From Candidatus Saccharimonadota bacterium (lineage in GTDB: Bacteria > Patescibacteriota > Gracilibacteria > BD1-5 > UBA2023): DNA of 32,000 bases. Both the position numbers and the translations under genes were made by a program. The notes under the pieces were generated by a model that saw only the letters and a program-made list of their open reading frames with translations, was not told the origin of the DNA and ran no database searches. Location of the stretch: contig BAAFHK010000003.1 of the NCBI GenBank assembly GCA_042852035.1, positions 224,473-256,472 on the forward strand, given 5' to 3'. The first letter of the stretch is position 1. Every line of letters starts with the position of its first letter. This document shows positions 4,234-29,807 of the stretch, piece by piece.

Positions 4234-4278
4234 CAATTTTTCATATAATCTAGGCAATTTTACTAATAAGTTAAGAAA

Positions 4279-6270: not shown

Positions 6271-6271
6271 T

Positions 6272-8872: not shown

Positions 8873-9619
8873 TAAGGAAATTGCATACTTCCCTGTAAAG
8901 TTTTCTTTTAGGATTTCTTCATATTTTTCTTTTTTATAATCCCAACAAGACACAATCAAAATAAGGTTCTTTTCTCTAAACAGAGGAAAGAACTTTTTAT
9001 TATTCTTTCTAGTATTCATATCTTCATATCCTAGTACTTTCTGATGAAACTGTTTGTATGAGTTCATATTTTCTAATTCAAGACAATAGGCTGTATTTCA
9101 GATACTTAATAGTAAATCTGGTATCATAACAAAATCTAGATATTCATATTTAGTTTCAGGATTTTTTAACTCTGTTTGAAGTATTTTTTGGATTGTTTTT
9201 GATCCTGTAAAATATTCTGCTTTCAATACAAAATCCTTATTTTTATTTCTAATCTTTCATAGGAAATAAACAAAGAGATCTCATAATAGTAGTTGATGAT
9301 TATATAGGGTATAACTGGTATTATAAATTGATGGTTCATATTTTATTCAGGTCTCATAATAAATCCTGTTTAGGACTATTTCAGTAGTATTTAGCATATA
9401 AATACTATACTGGCTTATACTTTTATATTCTTGTTTCAGTTCTTTTATAAATCAATGCTTTTTCAGGAGGAGTAGCCTTATATTAAAGGTTTTATGTTGG
9501 GTTTCTGGACTAACAATATTTTTTAGATTTCTAGAACTACAAAATCATAATTCATTTAAAGTATGAAATATTAACAAGTCCCTAGGTGTTAAAACTATAT
9601 TTTCTCTGGTTTTATTCAT
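8867..9619 (-). CDS. Replication-relaxation (Replic_Relax)-like protein: N-terminal wHTH plus PD...ELE nuclease-like motif
   Basis: 250-aa code-25 ORF. N-terminus LTPRDLLIFHTLNELGFCSSRNL resembles the family as I recall it. IPDLLL...CLELEN motif. Its ATG overlaps the stop of the upstream ATPase gene. Confidence 0.45.
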
Positions 9620-11066
9620 ACTTTTCTCAATTAGATTTTAAAAGTTTCTGTATATTTTGATCTCAAATATTTAAAGACTGTGTTAATATGCTTAAAGTTC
9701 AGTGGTTAATAGTGTCAAAAACAGAATAGAACTCTCATCTTTTGAGATTAACAATATCTTTTTCACTTATTGCAAACTTTTGCTCTAATCAAGAATTGGT
9801 AATAGGAACAAATAACTCTGCCTGTTCTGGTGGTAATGCAAAAATAAGTGAATAACTCAAATTATTTAGTAAATCCTGTAATTCTCTACTGATACTCTGG
9901 AATATAAACAACATATTTATTTTTTTCTTCCTGTGTTCATTTAGTATTTTCTCTAAAATATCTAACATATGATTTTTACTACCTTGGAGTTCGAGAAAAC
10001 TTTGAAATTCATCACAAGTATAATAATGGCTTCATAAGTTGGGATTATTATGATTTTTACCTGCTCCAATGTGATATAAAATGTTTGTAAGGAAAGATAT
10101 TACTACTCTTCTTTCTTGGGTATTGAATACTGAAAAATCAAATAGATATACTTCTGTTTGTTTCTTTTCTCAACTCATATAGTGTTCTATGTCCAATGTA
10201 AGTTCTTTATAACTTTTTCAATATCCAAAAGTATCTCCTAATCAAAAACTAAAATCTTTCAATTTTGTTAAACTGGTAATATGAGACTGTTTATCTACTT
10301 GAAGATCTTTAAGAAAAGTTTTTAACTCTTGGTCTACTCCATTTGCAAGTTGGAGTATGTCAGAATGAGTAGAAGAAAATAGTTTTTTTCTATCTTCATC
10401 AAGATAAGTAGGAAGTTTCTGGCATCTACTGGTATAATCTAACAAATCATATAAATCCCTATAAGATAATAAAACATTGTCAGGATCTCTATGGTATCTT
10501 TCTATATTGATAACTATAAAACTTCTTATAAGTCCCTCTAATACTTTTGTGTTTGAGGGTCAGAAAGCAGAGTAGTTAAATACTCATTTCAAAGAGGAGA
10601 TATTATAGTTTACCCATTTATTTAAGTCTGTAATATCTTCTACAAGAGACAAAGCAAATAGTGGATTAAAGAAAAATGTTTTATCCATATAAAACCCTCT
10701 ATATTTTTTATTATTTTCAATAGTTTCATTGGAAAATCTAAAAATATCTCAATATCTGCTTAATTTTGGATTATCTATTAAGTATTCTCATAAAAGATTT
10801 AACAAAGGATTTATAAATGAGTTATGGGGATCAATACAAACAAAAGTATCTCCATACTTTGTATTATCTGGTTGAGACTGTTGTAAAATTGAAGATTTTA
10901 TAGTAGAAAATAGGGTAGATACTAAACTGTATGTTTTGCCACTTCAAGATTTTCAGAATATTCATCAATGACCGGATTTTAAAATATTGTAGTTGAGTGA
11001 TAAAAGTGCTTTATCTTCTAGTATATGGGACTTCTGGACTGTCCCTATGGGTATAATGTGAGACAT
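9612..11066 (-). CDS. Type IV coupling protein-like ATPase (VirD4/TraG/TraD family), no obvious N-terminal TM segment
   Basis: 484-aa code-25 ORF. Walker A GKSGSGKT. Walker B and TraG-D_C-like region YYTCDEFQSFLE ... HRKKKINMLFIFQS. Confidence 0.6.
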
Positions 11067-11142
11067 AGTATAGGCTGGTTAAGTGATATGTTATATTGTA
11101 TTAATAAAAATTAAGATTTTTGATTAAATTACATTCAAAAAA

Positions 11143-12003
11143 TCATGAACTAGGTAAAATTATGGCTTTATCCTGAATAGTTCCTGAAATATGGGAAAGT
11201 GGTAAAAATAGCCCTTGTGATAATAGTGCTTCCGGTTGAAGTAGTCTTTTATACTGTGGTATATAATCTAAAAATGTTTTATATTCAGTTATTGAGTAGG
11301 AATTATACAGAGATGCATATAGTCCAAGGTTCTTATACAAAATACTTTTAATATCCCTATATTGCAGGTTATGTGATATATTAAATTGAAATAGAAACAT
11401 GTTCTGGCTTTCAGTAAAAGAACTTATAAAACTCTCCTGCTCCTTTTCATTCATATTTTTACTTTTCTGGGTATATAAATAATCCTTTACTAATGATGAA
11501 TAAGATCCCTTTGAGAATGAAAAGAGTATTTTAATAACTTCATTTTCATTAATGAAGGGCAATATTTCCTGTATGAATGAACTTTTTATAGATGAGGAGG
11601 TTGTAAAGTCTCAGGCTCATAAAGCACCAAGTTTCTTAATTTGTAATACAGAGTGGTTATTAAGTCAGATTTTATAAATATGCTTGTATGATTGTCTTAA
11701 TATGAAATCCCTTTTTATGTCTATTGAAAAACTGATCTTTCAGTTGTAGAGTTTGATAAAAAACTGCATTATATAATTAATACCTTCAAGACTATTAGAA
11801 AATATATATTCATCTATAAAAACTCTATTTTTAGCCTGATAGCAATGTGTTTCCATTCAAAACCATAGATGAGGGAGGTAGAAAGCATTTAAATCATTCT
11901 TGATGGAATTTATAAGGTTTTCTCAAAAGTTGGTTCAAGGATTGATTTTTAAATAGAAAAGTTGATGCTCTGGAAAATATGGAATATTTGAAATTTGAAA
12001 CAT
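11143..12003 (-). CDS. Hypothetical protein (286 aa), first gene of the minus-strand mobilisation operon
   Basis: Code-25 ORF from ATG 12003 to TGA-free stop at 11143. No family recognised. Confidence 0.45.
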
Positions 12004-12088
12004 GGAGATCAAAATTAATAAAACAAATAATCATTATATTAATTTTTAGAAACTATGGATTATGTCATTGTATATTCTTCATTACCTA

Positions 12089-12230: not shown

Positions 12231-12276
12231 CTAAAGGAAGAAAAAGATATACTTGATATTAATTAATGTAATTATT

Positions 12277-13311
12277 ATGACTAGATTAATAGATGGGGTA
12301 AGGGAGGCAGGATTGGAACAAGGAACAGATGGAAGAGTAAGCAAAGAAAAAGTAAATGAGATGTTAGAGTTTTTTAGTAAAGCATTTTGAGAAGATGCTA
12401 TATTATCTGTATGAGGATTTGATAAGAAATTAGTTGATGCTGTTAAAGAAAATGACAATATCATTAAAAGATTATTACAATCAGAATTAGAAAGAAATTG
12501 TAGATATGAAATGAATATAAGCACTTCTAATGTTAAAGAAGTTATTGAGTGGATTGATATTATCAATAACAACCAAGAAAAAAATGGTTGAATTATCTGA
12601 AAACAATTTAGATTTACTGCTAGTATTATTGAGGCATTACTTGCATTTTTAAAACTCTATCAATCTGCAAATATTGTTAATCAAAATGAAAATGGAAGAG
12701 AAAAAGAAATAATTCTGGTTTTGATTGTTAAGACTTTAAGGTATGCAATAGGTTCTGGAAAGAATGGTTTTACAGGAATAAAGTCTGATTTATTTTCAAA
12801 GTTTGAAGAAGTATTGCATAGGATTTTTGATGATGCTGATATTGAAACAGATGAGAAAACACAACTTATTTTTCAGTGAAGTGCAGGATCTTATGGAAAT
12901 GCACCAAAAAATAATGTATGGATAGAAGATTTTATTAGATCTGTTTCAGGAGATGGCTGAAATGTATTAGTTCATTTTTTAAAAAAATCACAACTCAATA
13001 AAACAGAGTTATTATTATATACTGATAAAAATATTGTAGAAGTTATCATTGAATATTGAAATAACTTTATATTTATTCTTACAAATAGTAGAGAATGGAA
13101 AAAGGAGGCAGTTTTACTTTATAAAACTACTGAAAATATCTTGCAGGATCAAGTTAATAGATGATGAATTGAAAAAATTATTAATCTATTTCTTCAATGA
13201 GGTTTACCAGTTGAAAAGAATGATAATCTAAAAGTTATTAGTAGAAATGATATTTTAGATAGAAAGTTTATTGCAGAAGAAGACTTTGGTAAAATTATTC
13301 AAATTTCTTAA
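12277..13311 (+). CDS. Hypothetical protein (344 aa)
   Basis: Code-25 ORF from ATG 12277 to TAA 13309-13311, with about 12 in-frame TGA codons. No family recognised. Confidence 0.5.
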
Positions 13312-13350
13312 TTTCCTTTTATTAAGGTGGGTATGGGTATTTTTTAAATT

Positions 13351-14904
13351 ATGGACTTACAAAAAAAGATTACAGACACTCTGGATTTACAAATAAATGC
13401 TGATGATATTTTATATTCAAATATTGATAAGTTAGGCTTTTATTTTAAGTCATCAGAACTATTCTGATATTTTAAATCAAAAGATCCATTTCCAGATAAA
13501 GAAGAAGTTATTACTATCTGAGATACAAAGTATAATTTTCTAGTTTATCTTTCAGATAAAGACTTGAATGGATATGATAAAAAACTATGACTAAAAATAG
13601 AATATAGAGGGGAATATTATGAGGTTATAGATATTCTATTTAACATAAAAGAAAGTAGATATTTATGTGTTTTTCATGGAAAGTTGTGGAGGTTTTCAAC
13701 TCTAAAAGAGTTTGGATTTTCAAATCAAATATTAATTGAATTTATATCAAAAAACTTTACAGAGATACAATTAAGAGAAATTCATATTTGTTTAGATGTA
13801 GAAGAGAAAGAAGATTATCTAACTAGGATTAATGAATATATTAAAAACTATGTTCCAAAGGTATTCAATAAAGATACCTACAATTTTAGTAGTTGAAATT
13901 TATGAAGACAAATTGAAATAGGTTTGCCAGACAGAAAGAATAATAAAGAGTTTTTTTATAAAATTTATAATAAGACTTTACAGGCTAGGAAGATGTGAAT
14001 TGATAAAATATATGTTGATTATTGTTTATCTACTGAAAAGAATGTGTTTAGATATGAAATAGAGTTTAGACAAAATATAGCAAAAACCATTAAATTAGAA
14101 GACTTAAAGTTAATCTGACCTATACTAGAAAATAAGAAACAGATGCATGCAGGGAAGTATATTTTGAATGAATGGATTTGTAGAACTCTTATTTCATATT
14201 TTGTAGACAAACAAAAATTTGATTTTGTGTTTTGACAACTCAATATTGAGAATGTGAAACTTAAAAGGTCTGAAAATAGAGCCACAGGTTCAGTTGGCAA
14301 AAGAATAAGTGATTTAAACCTGATAGGACAGCTAAAATCTTTAAGAACCCAAGCAAAGAATATAGAAAGCACTACTTGAATACCCTTGAAGAACAACTTT
14401 GATAAGTTAGATGAAATTATAGGAGAAAGTCAGGATTACAGATATTATATCACTATTTATAGAGGAATTTTCAGGACAATAAAAAACCATTATGAAGAAA
14501 ATGAGGTAAAGGATTTTGATGAACTTTCTGAATTGATAAAGGGGGCTACTACCTATGCACTCAATTTTCTAAAAACTGATTATAACAACTTCTTTAAGAT
14601 TATAAGATGATGAATTAATAGGAATGCTGATAGTGTAATAGAGTTTCTTGCAGATAATGAAAACTCTTTAAGTGAATTGATTTATTTTTATTACTTTTGA
14701 AGATTAAGAGAATGAATATTGTTTGATTTCCTAGATGTTCTAAAAGAATGAAATATGCCATTATTTCAAAAATATTTTGAAGATGATAAGAAGTTAAGAG
14801 AGAGTATTGCAAATAAACAAAAATCAATAAGTATGCTGAATGATGATAGTAATTTATCCTTTGATGATTACTCAAAGTCAGTTTTTAATATATTTTATAA
14901 ATAA
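13351..14904 (+). CDS. Putative replication initiator (Rep_trans / phage CRI-like)
   Basis: 517-aa code-25 ORF. LREIHICLDV and FRYEIEFR resemble the RxDxAxD and RxExE(F)R strands of rolling-circle or phage gene II-type initiators as I recall them. Confidence 0.4.
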
Positions 14905-14915
14905 TCTCATTTTCT

Positions 14916-16814
14916 ATGGAACAATCAAAGAAAAAAAGAGTAGGAATATACATTAGAGTTTCTACATTAGACCAAGCAAAAAAAGGAACTTCTCTTGAAG
15001 ATCAAGAGCAGAGTTTAAAATTATATATACAAGCAAACTCAATAGATGGTTGGGAACTTGCTGAAAATGGAGTTTACAGAGATGATGGAATTAGTGGTTT
15101 TAAGGGTATAGCAGATAGACCTGAATTTGATAGATTAATGAATGATGTGAATGACAAAAGATTAGATATTGTTTTGGTATATAGAATAGATAGACTAGCA
15201 AGAAATACAGAATTACTGCTGAATACTGTTAAGAAATTTAAAGTAAAGTGAGTGCAGTTTGTGAGTATGAGTGATAGAATTGATACAGATACAGCAAGTG
15301 GGAAGATGCTACTTGCTATACTAGGTGCTATGGCTGAAATGGAAAGGAACTTGATTTATGAAAGGACATATGCTTGAAAGATTAGAAAATTAAGTATGGG
15401 TTATGCTTCCTGATGATGATTTGATTTACCACTTGGTTATAAAAAATGAGAAGATGGGAAGATAATGATTGATGAGCCATATAAAGAGTTAATCCAAGAG
15501 ATTTTTGATCTTTGTACTGGGGAGAAGCACTTTACACCAAAAGAAATTGCTGCTGAATTATCATCAAGGGAAGAAACTACTTGGTGGGATAAAAAAATGG
15601 CAAAACTTAAAAAGAAACAAGTTAAAACAGGTGTCTGGAATGCAGATACAGTAAGAAAGATACTTCTCAATCCTATTTATAAATGAGTATACTATTTTTG
15701 AAAAACAAGAAAAGTGCTTGCAGATAATGAAGAAGATGAAATTACTGTAAAAGTTCCAGAAGAAGAATGGCTACCAGTTCCTATGCCTTGTGGTTGAATT
15801 ATTACAGAGAAACAATGGGAAGATGCTAAATATCAAATTCAAAAGATTAATAAAATTAATAGAGGAAGATGAAGAAGCCATATCTTTACAGGTCTAATTA
15901 AGTGTGGGTTTGACTGAATGAGTTATATTTGTTATAGGTCAAAACAGAAGAAAGTTGAATACTTTTATTATAGATGTGGTGGAACAAATGCGTCTAAAAA
16001 TGAGAATAAAAGAAAAGATACTGATGTAGGAAATATTGATATGCCTTTGTGTAATAATCTACAAGTTCCTGAATTAGAACTTTATAACTACTGTATTGAT
16101 ATTATTACAAGGTTCATAGAAGAACCAGAAGCACTATATAAACAAAAAATAGGGAATGATGAGGAGTTTAAGAAACAAAAAAAGATCCTTGAAACAAAAA
16201 TAGAGGAAGATAAGTTAAAAATTAAAGAACTTGAAGTTACTATAACATCATTGTATTATCAGAAATCAAAAGATAAAATAAATGCTGATAACATACAAAA
16301 TGTGCTTGATACATACACACAAGATAAAGAAGCAGCATTGAAAAGACTTGAAAATAATGAAAAAGATTTGCTAAATTCAGAAAATCAGTTAAATTCTGGC
16401 AAGCAAATGAAACAGTTTGCTGAGACTTACAAAGATAAACTTGCAAATCTTACAGAGGAACAAGGAACAGAACTTATTAGGTTGTTAGTTGATAGGATTG
16501 AAGTTAAAGGAACGTTAATTACAGTATTCTTTAAGTTCAAACCACACCCAGAGAGTTTTACACATAGTCAAACTCTAAAAAAAAACTCTAAAAAAATAGA
16601 GGGGGGAGATTTTACAACAAGTTCTACACCAAACAAGCAGTCTCTCCAACATATATGCAGCCGTAGTTCAGTTGGATTAGAACGCCTCCCTGCGAAGGAG
16701 GAGGTCACAGGTTCGAGCCCTGCTGGTTGCACCATTTCAACTCATAGAAGACTCTTCAGTACCATTTTTTGGCTCTGGGGAGCTTTTTTTAGGTTCGTAC
16801 TCATCTATACTTAA
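14916..16814 (+). CDS. Large serine recombinase LSR-A. The integrated-state ORF has no stop before the att core and runs through tRNA-Arg
   Basis: VGIYIRVSTLDQ (catalytic Ser), YRIDRLARN, recombinase domain, Zn ribbon CGFD-G-...YYRCGG, long coiled coil. The first code-25 stop is TAA at 16812-16814. The native end is probably just after core C (about 16613). Confidence 0.85.
16600..16613. repeat. att-like core copy C (AGGGGGGAGATTTT), putative attR of element A, inside the LSR-A ORF
   Basis: 14-nt identity with copies A and B, 44 nt upstream of tRNA-Arg. Confidence 0.55.
16657..16734 (+). tRNA. tRNA-Arg (anticodon GCG as folded by hand), CCA encoded
   Basis: Acceptor GCAGCCG/TGGTTGC, D arm GTTC..GAAC, anticodon stem CCTCC/GGAGG with loop CTGCGAA, T loop TTCGAGC, discriminator A, CCA. 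Confidence 0.7.
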
Positions 16815-18356
16815 TCAAACCTTGGAAGGTTGGAACCGATAGTTAATTGCTATTACTGGTCTTAAGTTCTCACGTGTAACCACTATATCTCTCACAAGAA
16901 TATTGATAATTTGCTTTTTTTGAGAAAAGGAGAGATTCTCAATTTTTGTCTCGATTGTTTTAGAAAATTCCTCAAGAGAGATTTTCATCTCTTCAGCTTG
17001 TACTATCCCATCAAGCTTCTCATCGAGATCCTGTATCTGTTTTTCACAAGCTTCTCTATCCTGAGATATTTTTGCAAGGACTTTTTCATATTTCTCTTCG
17101 GAGAGCATACCTTTCCTGTAATCTAATTCAGTTGATAGATCAGCATCTTCGAGCCTTTCAAGTTCTATCTGACGACGTTCACGCTCTTTAGTATATGTGT
17201 CGTAATCTCTACTGTCGACAGATTGCTTACGGAAGATATCATATAATTCCTGAGGTCTTTTAATAAAAGTCTCAATATGTTCCCATACCAATTCCTCTAG
17301 ACTCAATCAAGGAATATCAAAGTTTTTGTAATACTTTCCTCGGATAGTTCGAGCTGGACGACGGTAACTTATTCCACCTTTTGTTCGACTCACTCATACA
17401 AATTTCCGACCAGTTTCAAGATCGGTTACTTTTCTGGAGAGCAAATATTCTACGTTTCCACCTCATCTGACAGGATCCTCCTCACTCTCTTTGATGAGAT
17501 TTTTTGCAAGCTCGAAGGTGAGATCGTCTATAATCCTTGGCACCTCGATCGGTACTTGTGTCTCATATCACTTCTCGTCCTTGCTCTTGTACACAGCTCT
17601 CCCAGTATAAGCACCTCTTTCGAGAATATTTCTAATATCAGTATGATACCAAATTTTAGCTTTATTTTCTCTCGTATTCCCCTTTCCCTTATCGACCTTG
17701 TTTTCTGTAAGGATATTAGCGATTTCTTGATAGGTTTTCCCAGATAAGAATTCTGAGAAAATTCTCTTCACCCAAATTGCTTCTTCTGGAATAACAATTA
17801 ATGATCTTCATTCACGCTTATCACTTTTATCCTTAATATAACCAAATGGAGTCGTACTTAGTACATAATTCCCTAACCTTGCAGAGGCAAGCTTTCATTC
17901 TTTCGTTCTTGTCTTTATAGTTTCCCTCTCAAATTCTGCTAAAGCTCAAAATATCTGAAATGTAAGTTTACCGATGGGACCAGTAAAATCTATATTCTCT
18001 TTCAGAGAGAAAAATCAAACCTTATTTTTTTGTAAGATTTCAAATGTTGATAGAAGATGGGAGAGGTTCCGAGATAGTCTATCTATTTTCCACACAGCAA
18101 CCATATCAAACTTCCCAAGCATAGCGTCTTCTATCATTTTTTTATACTGAGGTCTATTCAGATCAGCACCAGTCTTTCCTAGGTCCTGATACACCCATTC
18201 TGGATTATGTATCCAGTTATTGTGTTTTCCTCGAAAAACAATCATTTCCTGTAATCACTGAAGTTGCATTTCTGGTCAATAGCCATTCTTTTGTTCTTCA
18301 GTCGATACACGGATATAAAATGCAACTCGATGGGGTTTATCACTAATTGTAAGCAT
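16677..18356 (-). CDS. Large serine recombinase LSR-B. Code-25 reading continues past TGA at 16817-16815 into the antisense of tRNA-Arg
   Basis: VAFYIRVSTEEQ, WKIDRLSRN, G-ALAEFERETI, coiled-coil C-terminus. Internal TGA codons sit at conserved Gly positions. Under code 25 the first stop is TAA at 16679-16677. The homology-like end (…INYRFQPSKV) is at 16818. Confidence 0.8.
16752..16797. repeat. Direct repeat, left copy (putative attL of element B)
   Basis: TGGCTCTGGGGAGCTTTTTTTAGGTTCG (16770-16797) matches 23347-23374 at 27 of 28 nt. The upstream CTCTTCAGT is also shared. Contains a weak GCTC/GAGC hairpin plus a T7 run. Confidence 0.65.
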
Positions 18357-18381
18357 ATAAACATAGTTAATGTATGCTTAC
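18349..18381. promoter_or_regulatory. 9-bp inverted repeat spanning the LSR-B start codon (possible operator)
   Basis: GTAAGCATA (18349-18357) and TATGCTTAC (18373-18381). The ATG is at 18356-18354. Confidence 0.3.
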
Positions 18382-19360: not shown

Positions 19361-19666
19361 ATGTTAAATCCATCAGACCCCCACTATATAGAACATAATA
19401 AGAGACTCCGAGAAGCTGAAAAAGCCTGAAATGTCCAATACCTCACAAATCCATCAGAAATAGATATACGAATAGCAGATTGGGAAGACCAATTTCTCAA
19501 GGATTTCCCAGAGTTAAACTTTTTAGATAATCGGGAGGCTATGCTTCTGAAGTTTCGGGAAGTGGCTCAATATGATCCTTTATCATCTCAAGGCAAGGAT
19601 CGATTTATCGAAGAACACTGATTTCTTCCCGAGCAGATTTTCTCTTCAGATATGGAGTCCCAGTAA
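19361..19666 (+). CDS. Hypothetical protein (101 aa under code 25; 86 aa if the TGA at 19619 terminated)
   Basis: ATG 19361. In-frame TGA at 19619-19621, TAA at 19664-19666. The code-25 tail overlaps the convergent gene by 62 nt. Confidence 0.4.
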
Positions 19667-20117
19667 TACTGCCGTATTCTCCAGATTCAAGGACTTTAGC
19701 CTTCTTTTCAATAGATTTTAGTATCTCAAAAGCTCTCTTGGGACTAATATCGAGAATGATATTTTGAGGACCATTATTGATAGTTACTTTATCTTTGTCT
19801 ATACGCCACTCTGGATCTGTATGCTTCAAAAATTGGAGAGAGACTTGTATATCTCCTTCAGCAAGTGCTTTATTGATATTTTGTTTTGCGAGAAGGCGAG
19901 AATAGACTCATTTTGTGTTGCGAATTTCCTCTCGAAACTCTGGATTTTTATCCAGAAAACGGTAAAAGGCAGATACCGAGAAACCGCAAGCAAAAGAGGA
20001 TTCTTCGATTGTATGTCATAGTGAAATATACTCCTTGAATTTCGAGAGATTAGAAGGAGTTATTTTTGAGGGTCTGCCAATTTTATTATGTGTTTTAGTT
20101 GTATAGATCTTGGGCAT
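19605..20117 (-). CDS. Phage terminase small subunit-like HTH protein
   Basis: 170-aa code-25 ORF. The N-terminus GRPSKITPSNLSKFKEYISL-G-HTIEESSFACGFSVSAFYRFLDKNPEFREEI matches the GRPxKYxP...G.T...A...vS..T...W....peF pattern of small terminase or HTH_23-type proteins, from memory. Confidence 0.5.
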
Positions 20118-20140
20118 AGTCAGATTATCTTATTAAAAGT

Positions 20141-21169
20141 CTATGTTACTATTCTAAAATTAAAATTCACAGCATCTATGGAGTAAATAGTGATATCCTC
20201 ACATCTTACCTTATTGTCACGAAACAAAGCTATATTATATCACTGTGGATTCAAAGAACTATCGTATATTAAACCATCATATCATCACAAAACTTTTAAA
20301 AATTCAGCAATATATTGCGTTGGGAGATAATCTAACTCTTTGTCATCTTTTAGATTTGGCTTTGAAAACTCATTACTCATTCTTGAAATGAAGTGAATAT
20401 AAGGATAATAGTCTTCTATTTTTTCCCTCTCTGAAAGACGCATAAAATCAATAGAATCTTTCCTCAGATCAACTAAAATCAAATCCTCTAGTACTATGAA
20501 TTTCCCAGTGCATATTTGATCATAATGGGAGGCTCTAGTTTCATAGAATGTAGTAACAACATCACCTGATAGATATAAATAGGGTATTCCTATTGGGTTA
20601 ATTCTTCAGCCTTTAGAGGATACTTTATTTATAGGAGGCATACCCAAATCTTGGATATTATATAAATTTCAAGATCTACTAATCCTGCTTCTATACAATA
20701 AGTTATCAGCATCAATGGTAGTAGTGTGATAGTTTATTAAAATATATTCTATCTCTTCTAAATCTAACGCATTTGTTATATGGAATCGATTAGTATTTTT
20801 TAATTCATTGGTAAAGTTATCCCATCATTTAGTTAGGTGTATTTTTTGAGATGGAACTAATTTAGCATTGTCAAAAATTGGATATTTATGGGTGATAAAT
20901 ATGTCACTAAGTAATCTATTACTGCCTCATCAGGGATTAAAAATGCTTCAAAATTCTCAAAGTATAGAATCTATAGTTCAGATTGAACTCTCAATATCTT
21001 CAATATGTAGTTTTGAAAGACCCTCAAACATATGACCAAAGTCCACATCGCTAATATCACAAACGTGAACATTATTACTCTCGCAATAATCACACTCACC
21101 CTGTTGATTTAAAGAGCTAATGTACGCTTTAACATATGGACTATTGAAACAATTTTTACAACAAAGCAT
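20141..21169 (-). CDS. RES domain protein with N-terminal Cys-rich (Zn-ribbon-like) domain; predicted NAD-targeting toxin or effector
   Basis: 342-aa code-25 ORF. CCKNCF...CDYCES at the N-terminus. RES signature GGRINPIGIPYLYLSGDVVTTFYETR and C-terminal G-G-YDGLIYDSSLNPQ-G-YNIALF. The start lies 3 nt after the stop of the upstream gene. Confidence 0.75.
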
Positions 21170-21172
21170 ATA

Positions 21173-22126
21173 CTATACTAAACTAACCATTAATTCTATA
21201 TGATTCATAATCGCAAGCTTCTTTATAGAACCAAGTCAAGGGAAGTGACCAGTATTGTATAAATCTATAAATTCTTTAATGCCTTGTGTTTCAATTCCAG
21301 TATTCTTGGACCATTCTACTAATTTTGAGTTTGCCTCATTAAATTTTCAGGCAACATCAGATCTATCTCAATTTGAATCTGAAACAAAATGCCTTACCAT
21401 TACTTTCCCCGAAGTATCTTTATACGAAATATGTATAGCTACTGCAAAAGGCATAAATCCAGCTTCTGAATAGTTATCTCAAATGGTAGCAAAATCTCAA
21501 AATCCGACAAATTGTTCCGTCTTATAAAATAGATGCTCTTCGGTAAAAGCACTTGATTTGTCTTTATAATCAGAGTTCCTATTTTGTGATTCGAAATAAT
21601 CTGCTAGTGAAACCCTGGAAGATTCTATAAACTCTCTATAATAACGACGATTGCTGTTTGTTTTATCGAAATTAATTACGTTATATTTAATTTTTGCAAT
21701 CGAACTAAGATCATCTTGAAGTGACTTAATATTATCAGCATCTAAAACACTATTATGAATTAAGGATAACCCGCTTCAAACAGGTCCAGTTGTCACTAAA
21801 CAGCCTTTAATTTCGCTTGCTTTTAGAAAGTAGTTATCGTTTATGATAAGTCATATTTGAAAATTACTATAATCTCATAGCTCGGTAGTAACTAACTCCA
21901 TTATTTGTTCATACTTATCTTGAGCATCGCCATATTCAGGATTTAGAACAATAGTAAAATTAACGTTACTCTCTTTGAGTTTCCGTAGAGTTATATCAAA
22001 TGTTGTCGAAAACTTAACGGGCTCAATTATTGGTGAAACCTTTTCATTATTCAGGGCTAAAAAAGAGCTCATATCTCTAAGTGCCATTAATTCGAATTGC
22101 TTTCATCTTAGATACGGAAAATACAT
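21173..22126 (-). CDS. T4 Beta-protein / sce7725-like family protein (function unknown)
   Basis: 317-aa code-25 ORF. The N-terminus MYFPYLR-G-KQFELMALRDM and FVGF-G-DFATI-G-DNYS match my recollection of that family. 2-nt gap to the upstream gene. Confidence 0.45.
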
Positions 22127-22128
22127 AT

Positions 22129-23058
22129 TTATGAAACTTTAGTATTTAAATACTGATTCAGCTTTTGAAGCTCTTTGCTGTCTAGCCCTATGTTATAGCA
22201 AGAATACCTTAATGCCTCAGGTGCTGTCTTTAAGTAATTTTGATAACTTACATTCTTTTTGCGTTCTTTTAGCCTTTCGAAAGCTAGTTTCTGAAATTTG
22301 GTTACTTCTATATTCTTAGCAAGATCTAAGCAATAACGGAATTGTTTAGTATTTGGTACATCAACCTTAGTATTGAAATAGTTCTCGATTAAATTCAAAT
22401 ATTCATCTTTTCTCAAGGTTTTAAATATTGTGTCGTGATCAAACCTTGTCATATCCACAATGGCTTCTTGTACAGTCTTGAGAGTATTTCTATTTGTAAA
22501 TTCAATGATTCCTATATTAGTATCCTTATACTCTTCGATGATTTTTGCTAATAACTTTTTACTACTGACTATATAAACTTTATTTGCGAATTTTCTATAG
22601 TCATTTATTTGTTTTTCTAGCTTATCAAGTGTGTCTAATTCTGTCTTTACTTCAAATATCTTTACCTCACCATTGAGTAAGACGAAATCAGCAATTGAGG
22701 ATCATATAGTAAACTCATCAAATACTACAGTATGACTTGTCTTATATTTTGATAATTGACTATGTAAGAGTTTATTCTTATAAAAATACTCATTTCTATA
22801 ATTCCTTAGCAAGTACTCATATAGACTCTCTACAATGTCCTTATATGTAGAACCTTCTTGAATATCAAAATGTTTACTGATTCGATACCTAAACGCCGAA
22901 AAATCACCATCTATAAATTTTTTGATAGACGATGCCGAAAGAAGGGAGGCAATACTGATGAGAGCGTCTTTTTGTAGATCTTGTAACATATTGATTTTCC
23001 TCATTCTAATCGAATTGCTCGATAAAACAACATTTTTACTATACATAAAATTGCACAT
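22129..23058 (-). CDS. PD-(D/E)xK nuclease-fold protein (sce7726-like); start codon uncertain
   Basis: Code-25 ORF. YRNEYFYKNKLL then VVFDEFTI-G-SSIADFVLLNGEVKIFEVKTELD (a D...EVK motif). Candidate starts at 23058, 23046 and further in-frame Met codons downstream. Confidence 0.5.
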
Positions 23059-23094
23059 TCTGTTATATCTTGATTAAAGTAACTATTTTCCTCT

Positions 23095-23327: not shown

Positions 23328-23374
23328 CTCTTCAGTCGTCACTTTGTGGCTCTGGAGAGCTTTTTTTAGGTTCG
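23328..23374. repeat. Direct repeat, right copy (putative attR of element B)
   Basis: TGGCTCTGGAGAGCTTTTTTTAGGTTCG (23347-23374) plus the upstream CTCTTCAGT. See 16752-16797. Confidence 0.65.
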
Positions 23375-23707
23375 CCCACTGCTTCATTTCCGACTATCTT
23401 TGATTGGTCGAACCTTTGTTTTTCTTAGCATTTGATAAACCTTAACAATTCTTAACATCTTTCCATATATTTCATGTAACTGATATACCTGGAGAAATGA
23501 CTTATTTGAACTACGCATACAGTTGAAATTTTAGCCAACAGCTACTGCTTATTTTCTTGATGTAAATTTCTATTTCATATAAAATCAATACTTCAGATTT
23601 TTCAAAAATATATCGGAAATCTTAATTTTTACACCATACAATTTAGTTTAGCTTTGAATTATATACAGTATACATATAATTTATCTATCCCCTAAACAAG
23701 AAGTTTT

Positions 23708-25960
23708 ATGCTACAATCTCTTGCGTGAAATCTCCAACTTGAACCAGAAAATTGATCACAAAGAATCTGGCAATTCCTACATCAATATCTGTCACAATTA
23801 GGATCCAATGGTATATTAGGTTATAAGATACCATCATTGTGAAATGAGCAAGAATGGGTTCCTTCAATTATTTTTAGATCAAAAGAACATGGGATAATAT
23901 TAATTGAAATCGCAAAAGATAAACTAGAATCAGTCAATGATAGTGATTATTGGTTTTATAAAACATGACATACTCACACTAGAAATAAAGATAATGTTTT
24001 AGATACATTTAAATGAGAAGTTGAAAATAGACTAAGAAAGAGTAATCAACTATATGATAGAAAAAACAAGATGTTCTTAGTTGAAATTAAAACAATATTA
24101 ATTCTTCCTTTTAATGATAAAGTAGATGAAAAATCACTCTTAACAGAATTATATCCAGATTGGCTCTGTGATAAAGTTCTCTACTCAGATAACTATGAAG
24201 ATGAATTAAAATCACTGCTTTGAGAAAAAGATTTAAATTATGGTGAAGATCAATTGAGTATGATAGATGCATTGCTGGAATGAACAGAATCATTTATTTC
24301 AAAAAATGATTTTATTCCCAATGATCCTAAAACAAAAAATGATTTTATAAAAGAATCTCTCAATGAAACTTTTAGATTAGACCAAACTCAGAGATCTCTA
24401 GCCATGCAAATTCCTAGTTGACCACAACGAATTAGATGACTTGCAGGTACTTGAAAGACAGTGATTTTGTGCATGAAAACAGCCCTAGTACATAAGGATC
24501 ATAAAGATTTTAAAGTACTGTTTTTATTTAATACTCAAAGCATGTACTGACAAATTCGAGATAAGATAACAAAGTATTATTTAAACGAGAAAAAAAGTAT
24601 ACCAGACTGGAATAATGTTCATATTTTACATGCCTGGTGATGAAGATCTCGTGAGTGATTATATTATAGGCTCTGCAATGAGTTGAATATTAAACCAAAA
24701 ACCCTTTTGGATATTCCAAGATGATTTGATGGTACTGAAGTAATTTATAAAGACATTTTAAAATATAAGGATCAACTCAAGCAAGAATATGATATGGTTT
24801 TAATTGATGAGGCTCAAGATTTTCCACAGGAAGTATTTGAGACACTGTTCTATATAACGAAGTGAGATCCTTGAAAGAAAAAAATTATTTGGGCGTACGA
24901 TGAATTTCAAACATTAAAAGATATTAAAATCAAACAACCTGAACAATTATTCTGAAGAGACAATGATGGCAACCCAAATATGCCAAACAATATATTAGAT
25001 TGACAGTATCTTTGATGAATAAAAAAGGACTTCGTTTTACCAAATTCATATAGAAACCCACGCCTCACTTTAATGGTGGCTCATGGAATATGAATGTGAT
25101 TATATAGCGAAAAAGATATAATTCCTATGGAAGATAGGGAATCCTGGATTGCTCGATGATATACTGTCATTGAGCCCGCACAAAAGAATAACTTCTCTGC
25201 AAATGATCAAGTGGTGGTTGAAAGAGAAGACACTTATAGTAAGAATATTTTAGAGAGATTGTTATCTGAAAAATGAAATCATAATGATACATTAATACAA
25301 TTTCATGATGCTGATAATCTAATTTCCGAATTAACTTATGTTAGCTCAGAAATTAAGAAGCTAATTACAGAAGACGGTGTTCCTCCTGAAGAAATAATTG
25401 TTATTACACTTCGAACATCAACATCCAAAAAAGATCTAGAAATGCTAAGATCACTACTTAATCAAAATGGTATAAGTGCGATTACGCCTTGATATGTGGA
25501 ATCTTCAAATATGTTTAAGGAACCATGATCTGTAACCTTGGTTACGCCATTTAGAGCAAAAGGAAATGAGGCAAATATCGTTTTTGTAATAAATTCTCAA
25601 CAAGTTATAGCAAATGCAACTTATGTTGCAAGAGGATCATTTTTTGTATCTGTAACTAGATCCCGATGATGGTGTTATATTTCATGAAATGGAGATTTTA
25701 TAGATAAATTATGACTCGAAATTAATAAAATTATTAGTGATTATCCAAAATTCAAATTTTCATTTCCTAATCCTGAAAGCCTTCAGAGGAGACTTAATCT
25801 TATCAACAATTCAGATAAGGCGGAAAAGGTGGATGAACAAATTGATTTATTATTCTCTGACGAGGTCTCAAAAAGTGTTTTAATGGAAAGATTACTTAAA
25901 GATGAGGCTTTTAAAAAAGTTTATAATGAATATCAAGCAAAAAACAGCAATGATGTTTAG
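23708..25960 (+). CDS. Fused PD-(D/E)xK (NERD-like) nuclease and SF1 UvrD-like helicase
   Basis: 750-aa code-25 ORF. N-terminal HGIILIEIAKDK nuclease-like core. Walker A GLAGT-G-KT, Walker B MVLIDEAQDF, late SF1 motifs TPFRAKGNEANIVFV and VSVTRSR. Confidence 0.7.
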
Positions 25961-26714
25961 TAGAAGAAAATCAGATTTATGAAAAGAGCTTCTGGATGAA
26001 TTAAATCTTATTAATTCATATTTCTCAGAACTCATAATAAGCTCTTGATTTTGTTTAGATCAGGTTAATTCAATAACATGGTGAAACTATGAGCGTGGAA
26101 TTTCTTCCCAATTCTATACCCAAGAATATATGAACCTTGTTAATAAAAGACAATATAGTTTTCTGCTTAAAGAAAATAAAGGATTTATACAATTTTTCTT
26201 TAGCACTGACTGAAATGTTATCACTAAATGAAAGATGGCATTTTATCCATACCCTGTTGAAGTTAATATAGAACTGAATGATATTGAAGAATTGCTTATG
26301 TCTTCGGACGATGATATTTTATGAGAGCATTTAATAAATATACATGAATTACTCGATTCTGAGATTTCATGATCAAATCTAGATAACGAGGAAAGTATTG
26401 CTTATAAGTATTTAAAGAAATACCCTATTACAAATTCTTCACATCTTAGGGTTGATTACTCTCCTGGTGTAAGCAGTCATCAGATTTGTGAAATGCAAAT
26501 GTGATGAATAAATACTGTTCGGTTACCCTTTGCGGTTTTTATTCGTCCATTTATATTTTTCTCATTCATTGTAAAAAATATTTTTCCTGAAGAATATAAA
26601 AATCTTAAGACTCATAAATCAGATCCAATTGATAAATTAATTCAATCACACAAGAAAAAAAGTCTTTTTATAAAAGACTTTAAAGAAGAGAACTTTTATT
26701 TTACCCATATTTAA
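25950..26714 (+). CDS. Uncharacterised partner protein (254 aa) overlapping the helicase stop by 11 nt
   Basis: Code-25 ORF from ATGATG at 25950 to TAA 26712-26714. HLRVDYSPGVSSHQICEMQ followed by a hydrophobic stretch. Possibly a DUF2290-type protein, but that is a weak recollection. Confidence 0.5.
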
Positions 26715-29728: not shown

Positions 29729-29807
29729 TGGAGCGGGGGACCGGGTTCGAACCGACACACCCAAGGGTTGAAGCCTTAGTACACTCACTCTTTTATGTTA
29801 CCCCCGC
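29729..29807 (-). tRNA. tRNA-Gly (anticodon UCA), the UGA-decoding tRNA of genetic code 25
   Basis: Reverse complement GCGGGGG-TA-ACAT..GTGT-..-TAAGG-CTTCAAC-CCTTG-GGTGT-GTCGG-TTCGAAC-CCGGT-CCCCCGC-T-CCA. Anticodon loop C-U-UCA-A-C. G1:C72, C2:G71, G3:C70 and U73 are bacterial GlyRS identity elements. Confidence 0.8.

What the first reader, a model, noticed from the sequence alone, without database searches (positions are those of the whole stretch)
20141..23058. Three-gene operon: PD-(D/E)xK-fold protein, T4 Beta/sce7725-like protein and Zn-ribbon RES protein, a candidate undescribed NAD-depleting defence system
The three minus-strand genes are packed with 2- and 3-nt gaps inside a mobile island. 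The first has a restriction-endonuclease-like D...EVK core. The second resembles the uncharacterised T4 Beta / sce7725 family, which I recall usually pairs with sce7726-like proteins. The third is a clear RES domain, the NAD+ degrading or ADP-ribosylating toxin fold, fused to a Cys-rich N-terminal domain. There is no recognisable Xre-type antitoxin upstream. A sensor or nuclease pair coupled to a RES effector looks like an abortive-infection module not among named systems I know of.
Basis: partly seen in the sequence, partly recalled or inferred. Interest (0 to 1): 0.85.

Follow-up and report, generated by a model that had tools for sequence, protein, structure and literature searches.

The report
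RES-armed relative of P4 Gop-beta-cII defence
A tightly packed three-gene cassette in a candidate-phylum bacterium with a recoded genetic code is a widespread, untested cousin of the phage-P4 Gop-beta-cII anti-phage system, with the small membrane toxin replaced by an NAD-attacking RES enzyme.

Summary
Three minus-strand genes (A 22129-23058, B 21173-22126, C 20141-21169) are separated by 2 and 3 nt and are readable only with TGA=Gly. A passes the NCBIfam sce7726 cut-off. B passes sce7725. C is a Zn-ribbon + HEPN/RES-NTD1 + RES protein.

The trio is not a one-off. The same order A-B-C occurs in 77 of 80 retrieved species genomes. It also occurs on Rhizobium, Shinella and Moraxella plasmids, in a Salmonella ICE, in Neobacillus, in Pseudohongiella and in gut contigs.

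It is not wholly undescribed. A is a homologue of phage P4 cII (PADLOC 'cll', E=1.6e-17). B is a remote homologue of P4 Beta (hhalign 84%, E=8e-6; same best structural neighbour; parallel topology). P4 gop-beta-cII is an experimentally validated anti-phage system in which Beta restrains the toxic Gop. Here RES takes the place of Gop and the gene order differs.

My best reading is a Gop-beta-cII-type abortive-infection module with a swapped NAD-targeting effector. The RES form is absent from PADLOC v2 and from the searchable literature. No function was tested. I class it as a new variant of a known kind, of moderate interest.

The parts
22129..23058 (-). Gene A: sce7726 / P4 cII-family protein with a PD-(D/E)xK-like motif. 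It is 309 aa as annotated by NCBI (GAB0175339.1). The probable true start is M24 at 22989, giving 286 aa.
   Evidence: NCBIfam sce7726_fam 148 bits against cut-off 70. PADLOC 'cll' E=1.6e-17. BLASTP against P4 cII E=1e-12. Shares phrog_984 with P4 cII. E115, D124, E136, K138 and D142 are conserved in 75-76 of 76 members. Start evidence.
21173..22126 (-). Gene B: sce7725-family protein, 317 aa. It has a TIM-barrel-like alpha/beta fold and is a remote homologue of P4 Beta (PF14350).
   Evidence: NCBIfam sce7725_fam 275 bits against cut-off 60. AF2 model pLDDT 90.7, pTM 0.91. Weak TIM-barrel matches in the PDB, TM 0.37-0.39. Deep hhalign against the Beta family gives probability 83.8%, E=7.9e-6. 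B and Beta share the same top BFVD hit, A0A5J6TRS2. 73 columns are invariant.
20141..21169 (-). Gene C: 342-aa putative effector, annotated 'hypothetical protein' by NCBI (GAB0175337.1).
   Evidence: Pfam RES 58.8 bits and HEPN_RES_NTD1 28.4 bits.
21080..21169 (-). C residues 1-30: Cys-rich segment (CxxC...CxxC), putative Zn-ribbon.
   Evidence: C4, C7 and C29 are at least 90% conserved and C26 is invariant in 34 family members. This Zn-ribbon + NTD1 + RES architecture is noted in PMC3710099.
20771..21106 (-). C residues 22-133: HEPN/RES N-terminal domain 1.
   Evidence: Pfam PF18870, 28.4 bits against gathering score 27.4, E=2.3e-6.
20195..20638 (-). C residues 178-325: RES domain with candidate catalytic residues intact.
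   Evidence: Pfam PF08808, E=8.2e-16. Invariant R160, R162, R189, N191, Y199, E210, Y281, S304 and N312.
23038..23066 (-). Weak sigma-70-like -35/-10 match upstream of the M24 start of A. This is a possible operon promoter, with low confidence.
   Evidence: The region has fewer promoter-like sites than its shuffles, so this is only consistent with the shorter A and is not evidence for it.
16763..16797 (+). Left copy of a 35-nt direct repeat, 29 nt 3' of tRNA-Arg(GCG). Possible boundary of a 6.6-kb integrative element that carries the trio.
   Evidence: The repeat contains a hairpin plus a T-run, so it may instead be a duplicated terminator.
23340..23374 (+). Right copy of the 35-nt direct repeat (91% identical), about 280 nt upstream of gene A.
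16677..18356 (-). Large serine recombinase inside the repeat-bounded segment. Probable mobility gene of the element.
   Evidence: Pfam Resolvase 125 bits and Recombinase 61 bits.

Best explanation
The three genes form one operon encoding a Gop-beta-cII-type, toxin-antitoxin-like abortive-infection system in which the effector has been swapped.

- Gene A (sce7726 / P4 cII family, nuclease-like E-D-ExK core) and gene B (sce7725, a TIM-barrel-like remote homologue of P4 Beta) are the conserved sensor/regulator pair.
- Gene C (Zn-ribbon + HEPN/RES-NTD1 + RES) is the toxic effector. It occupies the role that the small two-TM protein Gop has in P4.

By analogy with P4, where Beta prevents Gop from killing the cell and a phage protein (orf184) unleashes the toxicity, B (with A) keeps C inactive in uninfected cells. 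A phage cue relieves this restraint. The RES domain then consumes NAD+ (phosphorolysis to ADP-ribose-1''-phosphate) or ADP-ribosylates a target, and the infected cell stops growing before the phage completes.

Shown here: the gene structure, the family memberships, the homologies to cII and Beta, intact conserved residues, and conservation of the trio across phyla.

Inferred: the division of labour, the trigger, the chemistry of C and the anti-phage phenotype.

In this window the cassette is cargo of a small recombinase-bearing island beside tRNA-Arg, in a code-25 (TGA=Gly) Candidatus Altimarinota genome.
For: 1. Operon. Gaps are 2 and 3 nt. B-C gaps are -4 to +5 nt in 76 of 77 other loci.

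2. Conserved trio.
- A-B-C in the same order in 77 of 80 species genomes. Two exceptions are cut by contig ends and one has transposase-like ORFs at the C position.
- The same trio at about 31% identity on Rhizobium, Shinella and Moraxella plasmids, where RefSeq names it sce7726 / sce7725 / 'RES family NAD+ phosphorylase'.
- A Salmonella houtenae ICE and a gut phage-like contig.
- The reciprocal test starting from distant C homologues gives the same trio in gut metagenomes, Neobacillus and Pseudohongiella.

3. A = cII. P4 cII scores 151 bits on sce7726 and defines PADLOC 'cll'. Window A hits 'cll' at E=1.6e-17. BLASTP gives E=1e-12. The two share phrog_984. A newer Pfam release labels the equivalent genes PF26915 Phage_P4_cII.

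4. B ~ Beta.
- hhalign probability 83.8%, E=7.9e-6 with deep profiles.
- Both AF2 models are confident with parallel strand/helix order.
- Both have the same top BFVD neighbour, A0A5J6TRS2.
- Faint PF14350 hits occur on sce7725-like genes.
- The N-terminal Y[FY]PxLRx[KR]xxE motif is shared.

5. C is a plausible active toxin. It has the RES domain and invariant R189, Y199, E210, S304 and N312.

6. Gop is unrelated to C. It is 133 aa with two hydrophobic segments and no RES hit. The third position is therefore an exchangeable effector slot.

7. The parent system is validated. gop-beta-cII protects against lambda and P1, and Gop is toxic without Beta (PMC9122126). Its toxicity is triggered by phage orf184 (bioRxiv 10.1101/2023.04.06.535777).

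8. Window context is defence-rich and mobile. It holds a Helicase+DUF2290 system (E=6e-105), Type III RM and a HerA/mad8-like ATPase, serine recombinases and a direct repeat at tRNA-Arg.
Against: - No experiment exists for this trio, and the anti-phage role is by analogy only.
- B does not reach the Pfam Beta_protein or PADLOC 'beta' thresholds.
- Gene order differs from P4. P4 has gop then beta, with cII convergent. Here A, B and C are co-directional.
- The two flanking genes on each side of the trio in 48 other genomes show no clear enrichment of known defence families.
- Beta restrains a membrane protein in P4. It is not obvious that the same mechanism can restrain a soluble RES enzyme.
- A Pseudohongiella MAG shows B fragmented while C is intact (L095). 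If this is real and not an assembly error, it argues against B being an indispensable antitoxin.
- The PD-(D/E)xK fold of A is not confirmed. There is no PDB sequence hit and only a sub-threshold MmcB-like Pfam hit.
- Solved RES toxins were not retrievable by sequence, so the catalytic-residue mapping is positional inference.
Confidence: 0.6

Rival explanations
1. The trio is a tripartite addiction (post-segregational killing) module. It stabilises plasmids, ICEs and small islands, and has no dedicated anti-phage role.
For: It sits on plasmids, an ICE and a recombinase island. Gop/Beta was first described as a toxin/antidote pair. Neighbours in 48 genomes are not enriched for defence genes.
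Against: The homologous P4 system gives measurable phage resistance and is triggered by a phage protein. In Bacteroidota most copies are chromosomal, with heterogeneous non-MGE neighbours. The window copy lies between two recognised defence systems.
Confidence: 0.15
2. The system architecture is as proposed, but C is an ADP-ribosyltransferase. It modifies a protein or nucleic-acid target (ParT-like) or makes a signalling ADPr derivative, and does not deplete NAD+.
For: RES belongs to the ART superfamily, and members attack NAD+ with different nucleophiles (PMC9503650). C has large N-terminal domains, Zn-ribbon and NTD1, that could recruit a macromolecular target.
Against: The characterised RES toxins summarised in PMC9503650 degrade NAD+ by phosphorolysis. 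RefSeq names the orthologues 'RES family NAD+ phosphorylase'. Nothing here discriminates between the chemistries.
Confidence: 0.2
3. Gene A is the real effector, a nuclease that degrades phage or host DNA. B and C are accessory or regulatory, for example C making an NAD-derived signal that activates A.
For: The E-D-ExK motif of A is almost invariant, as expected for a catalytically active nuclease. A is the component shared by both the P4-type and the RES-type systems.
Against: In P4 the toxic component is Gop and not cII. The variable third gene (a membrane protein or RES) behaves like an exchangeable effector. A is split in two ORFs in two loci where B and C are intact (L071, L075).
Confidence: 0.1

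Closest known systems
Gop-beta-cII anti-phage system of satellite phage P4 (PADLOC/DefenseFinder 'gop_beta_cll'; Rousset et al. 2022, PMC9122126)
   Same: It has a cII/sce7726-family protein (A): both exceed the NCBIfam cut-off, and BLASTP gives E=1e-12. It has a Beta-like alpha/beta-barrel protein (B) that is a remote homologue of Beta. It has three genes, sits on a mobile element, and carries a toxic third component with no conventional antitoxin.
   Different: The effector is a 342-aa Zn-ribbon/NTD1/RES protein and not the 133-aa two-TM Gop. B belongs to a distinct family: sce7725 rather than PF14350, and phrog_34524 rather than phrog_9159. The genes are co-directional (A-B-C), whereas P4 has gop-beta with a convergent cII. 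The PADLOC gop and beta models do not hit.
NCBIfam sce7725 / sce7726 paired families (NF033831 / NF033832)
   Same: B and A are full-length members above the curated cut-offs. RefSeq already annotates the pair side by side in many genomes.
   Different: These are naming models only. Nothing I retrieved gives them a function or a link to the third RES gene. The papers that mention them only list annotations.
RES-Xre type II toxin-antitoxin modules (MbcTA, ParST, NatRT, P. putida RES-Xre)
   Same: A RES-domain toxin of the ART superfamily that acts on NAD+.
   Different: No Xre/HTH antitoxin is adjacent. The RES protein is about twice as long, with Zn-ribbon and NTD1 extensions. It is coupled to two unrelated ~300-aa proteins. 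Solved RES toxins were not detected by a sequence profile.
HEPN/RES-NTD1 domain proteins (Anantharaman et al. 2013, PMC3710099)
   Same: [quoted passage not shown]
   Different: In the passages I read, that survey described the domain fusion and not an operon with sce7725/sce7726.
PD-Lambda-2 (Vassallo et al. 2022), component C
   Same: P4 Beta resembles PADLOC PD-Lambda-2_C (E=8e-14). Beta-like barrels therefore recur in more than one defence system.
   Different: Window B does not hit PD-Lambda-2_C. Window A and C hit no PD-Lambda-2 model.

Membership tests
Gop-beta-cII system | cII-family protein (PADLOC 'cll' / NCBIfam sce7726 / Pfam PF26915) | tested here: met
   A scores 148 bits on sce7726, 'cll' E=1.6e-17, and BLASTP against P4 cII E=1e-12. 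P4 cII itself scores 151 bits on sce7726 and 376 bits on 'cll'.
Gop-beta-cII system | Beta protein (Pfam PF14350 / PADLOC 'beta') | tested here: not met
   B has no PF14350 or PADLOC 'beta' hit at E<0.1 and sits in a different PHROG. The homology is remote only: hhalign 83.8%, E=7.9e-6, and a shared best structural neighbour.
Gop-beta-cII system | Gop toxin (PADLOC 'gop', ~130 aa membrane protein) | tested here: not met
   C has no PADLOC hit and is a RES protein. Gop has two hydrophobic segments and no RES hit.
Gop-beta-cII system | Gene layout: gop then beta, with cII convergent | tested here: not met
   The P4 and Pasteurella phage Pmp11 layout is shown. The window and all RES-type loci are co-directional A-B-C.
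Gop-beta-cII system | Confers phage resistance; toxicity restrained by Beta | not testable with these tools
   Known for P4 only (PMC9122126; bioRxiv 10.1101/2023.04.06.535777).
NCBIfam sce7725 family | Full-length match above the curated cut-off (60 bits) | tested here: met
   275.4 bits over residues 2-315 of 317. NCBI names the exact protein 'sce7725 family protein'.
NCBIfam sce7726 family | Match above the curated cut-off (70 bits), adjacent to a sce7725 gene | tested here: met
   148 bits. The gap to B is 2 nt. NCBI names it 'sce7726 family protein'.
RES-Xre type II TA | RES domain toxin | tested here: met
   PF08808, 58.8 bits against cut-off 23.2.
RES-Xre type II TA | Adjacent Xre/HTH (COG5642-type) antitoxin | tested here: not met
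   The flanking genes are B (upstream) and a 170-aa protein with no Pfam hit (downstream). No conserved HTH partner appears in the other loci.
HEPN/RES-NTD1 architecture | NTD1 domain N-terminal to RES, optionally preceded by a Zn-ribbon | tested here: met
   PF18870 scores 28.4 bits against cut-off 27.4, which is marginal. The four Cys are conserved. The description is in PMC3710099.
PD-(D/E)xK nuclease superfamily (gene A) | Conserved D...(D/E)xK catalytic motif | tested here: met
   D124, E136 and K138 are present in 75-76 of 76 members, and also in P4 cII.
PD-(D/E)xK nuclease superfamily (gene A) | Restriction-endonuclease-like alpha-beta-beta-beta-alpha-beta fold | tested here: inconclusive
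   Only a sub-threshold MmcB-like hit (13.4 bits against cut-off 22). The profile finds no PDB relative.
TIM-barrel fold (gene B) | Eight-fold beta/alpha barrel with conserved residues at the C-terminal ends of strands | tested here: inconclusive
   The AF2 model is confident. The best PDB matches are TIM barrels (KDO8P synthase) but with TM only 0.37-0.39. Invariant residues follow the predicted strands.

The most novel reading that the evidence does not exclude
The cII-like nuclease-fold protein plus the Beta/sce7725 barrel form a general, ancient sensor-regulator chassis. Its barrel is a true enzyme that makes or destroys a small molecule, and that molecule gates interchangeable effectors: membrane Gop, or NTD1-RES through its NTD1 sensor domain. 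This would be a previously unrecognised signalling route in bacterial immunity. It would be shared from E. coli satellites to candidate-phyla bacteria, and the RES form would give a soluble, assayable read-out for the still unknown mechanism of Gop-beta-cII.
Probability: 0.2. Interest if true: 0.8.

Novelty: new variant of a known kind. Interest (0 to 1): 0.55.

Why it matters
Gop-beta-cII is a validated anti-phage system whose mechanism is unknown. Three results here bear on that.

1. Its cII and Beta components have a much larger, cross-phylum sister group (sce7726/sce7725, about 1,450 clusters at 50% identity).
2. In every locus examined except one Enterococcus region, an intact, disrupted or contig-truncated RES enzyme follows the sce7726/sce7725 pair where P4 has the membrane toxin.
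3. This separates a conserved sensor/regulator pair from an exchangeable effector.

The RES form offers an enzymatic read-out (NAD+ loss, ADPr-1''P) for working out how the pair senses infection and restrains a toxin without a classical antitoxin.

The work also links two curated but function-less NCBIfam families to a known defence system. It gives a function hypothesis to a protein annotated 'hypothetical' in this genome.

The copy in a code-25 Patescibacteria genome carries 21 TGA-Gly codons, several at invariant glycines. It has therefore been maintained under the host's own code.

Tried and rejected
- Pairwise BLASTP of B against P4 Beta found nothing.
- Shallow hhalign profiles gave only 14-41% probability. 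The link became convincing only with about 270 diverse sequences.
- PHROGs place B and Beta in different families.
- I tried to identify the shared structural neighbour (Gordonia phage Powerball protein) as a Beta_protein member by tblastn, without success.
- Profiles of the C and A families against PDB sequences gave no meaningful hits.
- The promoter/terminator scan was uninformative.
- A crude census of the two flanking genes on each side in 48 genomes gave no defence-island enrichment.
- The look-up of encoding contigs could not locate the exact window protein B.
- Several literature searches returned only noise: PF14350/Beta_protein and PD-Lambda-2/cII/gop.
- The 2025 'component modularity networks' preprint mentions no gop, cII or sce77 term.
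- I considered TGA=Trp (code 4) and rejected it. TGA makes up about 3% of codons, aligns with invariant Gly and never with Trp, and the UCA tRNA looks Gly-like.
- I considered that the two RES-less loci, E. faecium plasmid and 'Listeria phage', were independent evidence for another effector. They are the same DNA at 99-100% identity.
Full report
**1. Observation.**

Under the standard bacterial code the region 20141-23058 is a litter of short ORFs. If only TAA and TAG are stops, the whole window resolves into long ORFs with about 3% in-frame TGA.

Three of these lie head to tail on the minus strand. Reading the sequence:
- Gene A ends with TAA at 22131-22129.
- Gene B starts with ATG at 22126, a 2-nt gap, and ends with TAG at 21175-21173.
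- Gene C starts with ATG at 21169, a 3-nt gap, and ends at 20141.

TGA encodes glycine here. Eight of the 21 TGA codons in the three genes fall on columns that are nearly always Gly in homologues from standard-code bacteria (A-119; B-8, 216, 260, 297; C-188, 296, 310). None falls on a Trp column. A tRNA with anticodon UCA and a Gly-like acceptor stem lies at 29729-29807.

The code-25 translations are identical to NCBI proteins from a 256-kb contig of a Candidatus Altimarinota MAG, in the Patescibacteria group. So the described genes are real and at the stated coordinates.

One refinement concerns the start of A. It is probably M24 at nt 22989. Most homologues begin there, AGGA lies 6 nt upstream, and a related assembly calls a 286-aa product.

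**2. What the three proteins are.**

Gene A scores 148 bits on NCBIfam sce7726 (cut-off 70). Gene B scores 275 bits on sce7725 (cut-off 60).

A keeps E115, D124, E136-x-K138 and D142 in 75-76 of 76 family members. This confirms the restriction-endonuclease-like motif. The fold itself is unconfirmed: there is only a sub-threshold MmcB-like Pfam hit and no PDB relative by profile.

B has no Pfam domain. An AlphaFold model built on 32 homologues is confident (pLDDT 90.7, pTM 0.91). It shows alternating strands and helices. Its best PDB matches are TIM barrels such as KDO8P synthase, but only at TM 0.37-0.39. Seventy-three columns are invariant, many just after predicted strands. That pattern is what one expects of an enzyme active site.

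C matches Pfam RES (58.8 bits) and, marginally, HEPN/RES-NTD1 (28.4 bits against 27.4). Its family keeps four N-terminal cysteines and invariant R160, R162, R189, N191, Y199, E210, Y281, S304 and N312. Exactly this Zn-ribbon + NTD1 + RES architecture was noted by Anantharaman et al. 2013 (PMC3710099).

**3. The trio recurs.**

A scan of one genome per species for relatives of B found 420 species. In the 80 best loci, A, B and C occur in that order on one strand in 77. Two exceptions are cut by contig ends. In the third, transposase-like ORFs follow B. B-C gaps are -4 to +5 nt in 76 of 77 loci.

At about 31% identity the same trio occurs on Rhizobium, Shinella and Moraxella plasmids. RefSeq annotates it there as sce7726 / sce7725 / 'RES family NAD+ phosphorylase'. 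It also occurs in a Salmonella houtenae ICE and on a gut phage-like contig.

I also started from distant C homologues (30-32% identity). Gut metagenome contigs, Neobacillus and Pseudohongiella again show the cII-like gene, a ~313-aa gene and RES in a row. My family HMMs confirmed these assignments.

The exhaustive profile search finds 1,450 clusters of B at 50% identity among 1.84 billion representatives. Nearly all of the 150 listed are single-domain proteins of about 305-320 aa, apart from a few shorter, apparently partial sequences.

The only RES-less instance I saw is one Enterococcus faecium plasmid region with a GNAT gene downstream. An 'unverified Listeria phage' contig carries the same DNA at 99-100% identity.

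**4. Link to a named system.**

The only PADLOC hit of the trio was A to model 'cll' (E=1.6e-17). That model is the cII protein of satellite phage P4:
- P4 cII scores 376 bits on it.
- P4 cII scores 151 bits on NCBIfam sce7726.
- RefSeq annotates P4 cII as 'sce7726 family protein'.
- P4 cII aligns with A at E=1e-12.
- P4 cII shares phrog_984 with A.
- A newer Pfam release names the equivalent genes PF26915 Phage_P4_cII.

In P4, cII lies next to gop and beta. Beta is the founder of Pfam PF14350.

**5. Is B a Beta homologue?**

Direct and shallow comparisons were negative or weak:
- BLASTP found nothing.
- There were no PF14350 or PADLOC 'beta' hits.
- B and Beta belong to different PHROGs.
- hhalign gave 14-41% probability with 13-79 sequences, aligning mainly the N-terminal motif Y[FY]PxLRx[KR]xxE.

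With about 270 diverse sce7725 sequences and 118 Beta sequences, hhalign gives 83.8% probability, E=7.9e-6, with 100 confidently aligned columns.

Independent evidence agrees:
- An AlphaFold model of the Beta family is confident (pLDDT 91.0).
- Its order of strands and helices parallels that of B. This includes the strand carrying the invariant G-x-D motif, a following beta-hairpin and the C-terminal helices.
- In BFVD the top hit of both models is the same protein, A0A5J6TRS2 of Gordonia phage Powerball. Beta matches it at E=1.3e-12, TM 0.70. B matches it at E=1.6e-7, TM 0.48, and that was B's only hit below 1e-3.
- Precomputed Pfam annotations give a faint PF14350 hit on sce7725-like genes.

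I conclude that sce7725 is a remote homologue of Beta, with confidence of about 0.8.

**6. What differs from P4.**

Gop is 133 aa with two N-terminal hydrophobic segments and a charged tail. It has no RES similarity.

In P4, and in Pasteurella phage Pmp11, the order is a small gene followed by beta, with cII convergent. In all RES-type loci the three genes are co-directional, with cII-like first.

So there are two sister architectures that share cII-like and Beta-like proteins and differ in the third gene. This is the signature of a conserved sensor/regulator pair with an exchangeable effector.

**7. What is known about the parent system.**

- Rousset et al. 2022 showed that gop-beta-cII protects E. 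coli against lambda and P1. They recalled that Gop is toxic without Beta (PMC9122126).
- Silas et al. 2023 showed that its toxicity is triggered by the phage accessory gene orf184.
- RES toxins phosphorolyse NAD+ to ADPr-1''P and are normally paired with an HTH antitoxin (PMC9503650).

None of the papers that mention sce7725 or sce7726 does more than list the annotation. None of my searches found a description of a sce7726-sce7725-RES system. The library covers open-access papers and bioRxiv only, so this absence is not proof.

**8. Most likely mechanism (inference).**

A and B form the sensing and restraining module, and C is the toxin. In the resting cell, B, possibly together with A, keeps C off, as Beta does for Gop. 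A phage-derived cue relieves the restraint. RES then destroys NAD+ or ADP-ribosylates a target, and the infection aborts.

The absence of an Xre antitoxin is explained because B/A play that part.

The many invariant polar residues of B suggest it is an enzyme and not a mere plug. The NTD1 domain of C, shared with HEPN effectors, is a candidate receiver. Whether a small molecule passes between them is open.

Observations that temper the model:
- A is split into two ORFs in two loci with B and C intact (L071, L075).
- C is split or lost in two loci (L022, L057).
- One MAG shows B fragmented next to an intact C (L095), although an otherwise matching marine contig has B intact (L094).
- Assembly errors cannot be excluded for any of these.

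**9. Context in the window.**

The trio lies between two recognised defence systems. Immediately upstream, on the other strand, is a Helicase + DUF2290 pair (23696-26714; PADLOC Helicase E=6e-105 and DUF2290 E=1e-11). Further away are a Type III RM system (4270-8872) and a HerA/mad8-like ATPase.

Two large serine recombinases converge on tRNA-Arg at 16657-16734. A 35-nt direct repeat (91% identical) at 16763-16797 and 23340-23374 brackets one recombinase, a 170-aa protein of unknown family and the trio, a segment of 6,577 bp. This fits a small integrative element. However, the repeat contains a hairpin plus a T-run and could be a terminator.

In 48 other genomes the two genes on each side of the trio are heterogeneous and not visibly enriched in defence families. 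The 'defence island' argument therefore holds for this window but not generally.

**10. Verdict.**

This is a conserved three-gene module with a RES effector and no classical antitoxin, and it lacks models in PADLOC v2. But it is an effector-swapped relative of the named and validated Gop-beta-cII system, and two of its genes are already curated NCBIfam families.

I class it as a new variant of a known kind, interest 0.55. Function and chemistry remain untested.

Noticed in passing
whole window; tRNA at 29729-29807 (-): The genome reads TGA as glycine (code 25). Long ORFs appear only with TGA read through. TGA codons align with invariant Gly in homologues. A tRNA with anticodon UCA has a GCG...CGC acceptor stem and U73, as in tRNA-Gly, although ARAGORN labels it tRNA-SeC. 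The source is a Candidatus Altimarinota MAG (Patescibacteria group).
   Followed up: yes
window 23696-25960 (+) and 25884-26714 (+): A UvrD/ResIII-type helicase (PADLOC 'Helicase' PDLC03002, E=6e-105) is followed by a DUF2290 protein (PDLC02998, E=1e-11). By its model numbering this looks like the Helicase-DUF2290 defence pair from the same P4-hotspot study as gop-beta-cII. It lies directly next to the trio.
   Followed up: partly
window 4270-6270 (+) and 6260-8872 (+): A Type III restriction-modification pair. The methyltransferase hits MTase_III/MTase_II models, and the second protein hits REase_III. Both carry many TGA-Gly codons.
   Followed up: partly
window 8867-12033 (-), and 12235-14904 (+): A HerA/DUF87-like ATPase (9612-11078; PADLOC mad8 E=1e-13, HerA E=2e-6) is flanked by three or four proteins with no Pfam or PADLOC hit. 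This may be another uncharacterised defence or mobility module inside the same island.
   Followed up: no
window 14901-16814 (+), 16657-16734 (tRNA-Arg), 16677-18377 (-): Two large serine recombinases converge on one tRNA-Arg(GCG). With TGA read as sense, both ORFs run into the tRNA gene. This suggests two independent islands inserted on either side of the same tRNA.
   Followed up: partly
window 19605-20129 (-): A 170-aa gene starts only about 23 nt after the stop of C on the same strand. It has no Pfam or PADLOC hit and is not conserved next to the trio elsewhere. It is probably part of the island backbone.
   Followed up: partly
L084 (E. faecium plasmid NZ_CP019972.1) and L087 ('Listeria phage LM 4-14-1', OR848224.1): A sce7726-like + sce7725 pair has no RES gene and is followed after 44 nt by a GNAT acetyltransferase. 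The 'unverified Listeria phage' contig is 99-100% identical to the Enterococcus plasmid region, so its organism assignment is doubtful.
   Followed up: partly
L081 (phage P4) 651-1718: P4 Beta also matches PADLOC PD-Lambda-2_C (E=8e-14 and E=2e-8). Beta-like barrel proteins therefore take part in at least one further named defence system.
   Followed up: no
BFVD entry A0A5J6TRS2 (Gordonia phage Powerball, 379 aa): An uncharacterised actinophage protein is the best structural match of both P4 Beta (TM 0.70) and sce7725 (TM 0.48). It was not found by tblastn with P4 Beta. It may represent a third branch of this fold family carried by a lytic or temperate phage.
   Followed up: partly
L095 3906-4998 (Pseudohongiella MAG); L071 and L075 (gene A); L022 (gene C): These are apparent pseudogenised copies. 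B is split into three ORFs next to an intact RES gene in one MAG. A is split in two loci, and C is split in one. If the B case is real and not an assembly error, it bears on whether B is an essential antitoxin.
   Followed up: no
L089 (Pasteurella phage Pmp11) 2601-4893: A complete temperate phage carries the P4-type arrangement next to its CI/Cro-like immunity region: a 131-aa ORF, a Beta homologue, and a convergent cII/sce7726-like gene. All three are annotated as hypothetical.
   Followed up: partly
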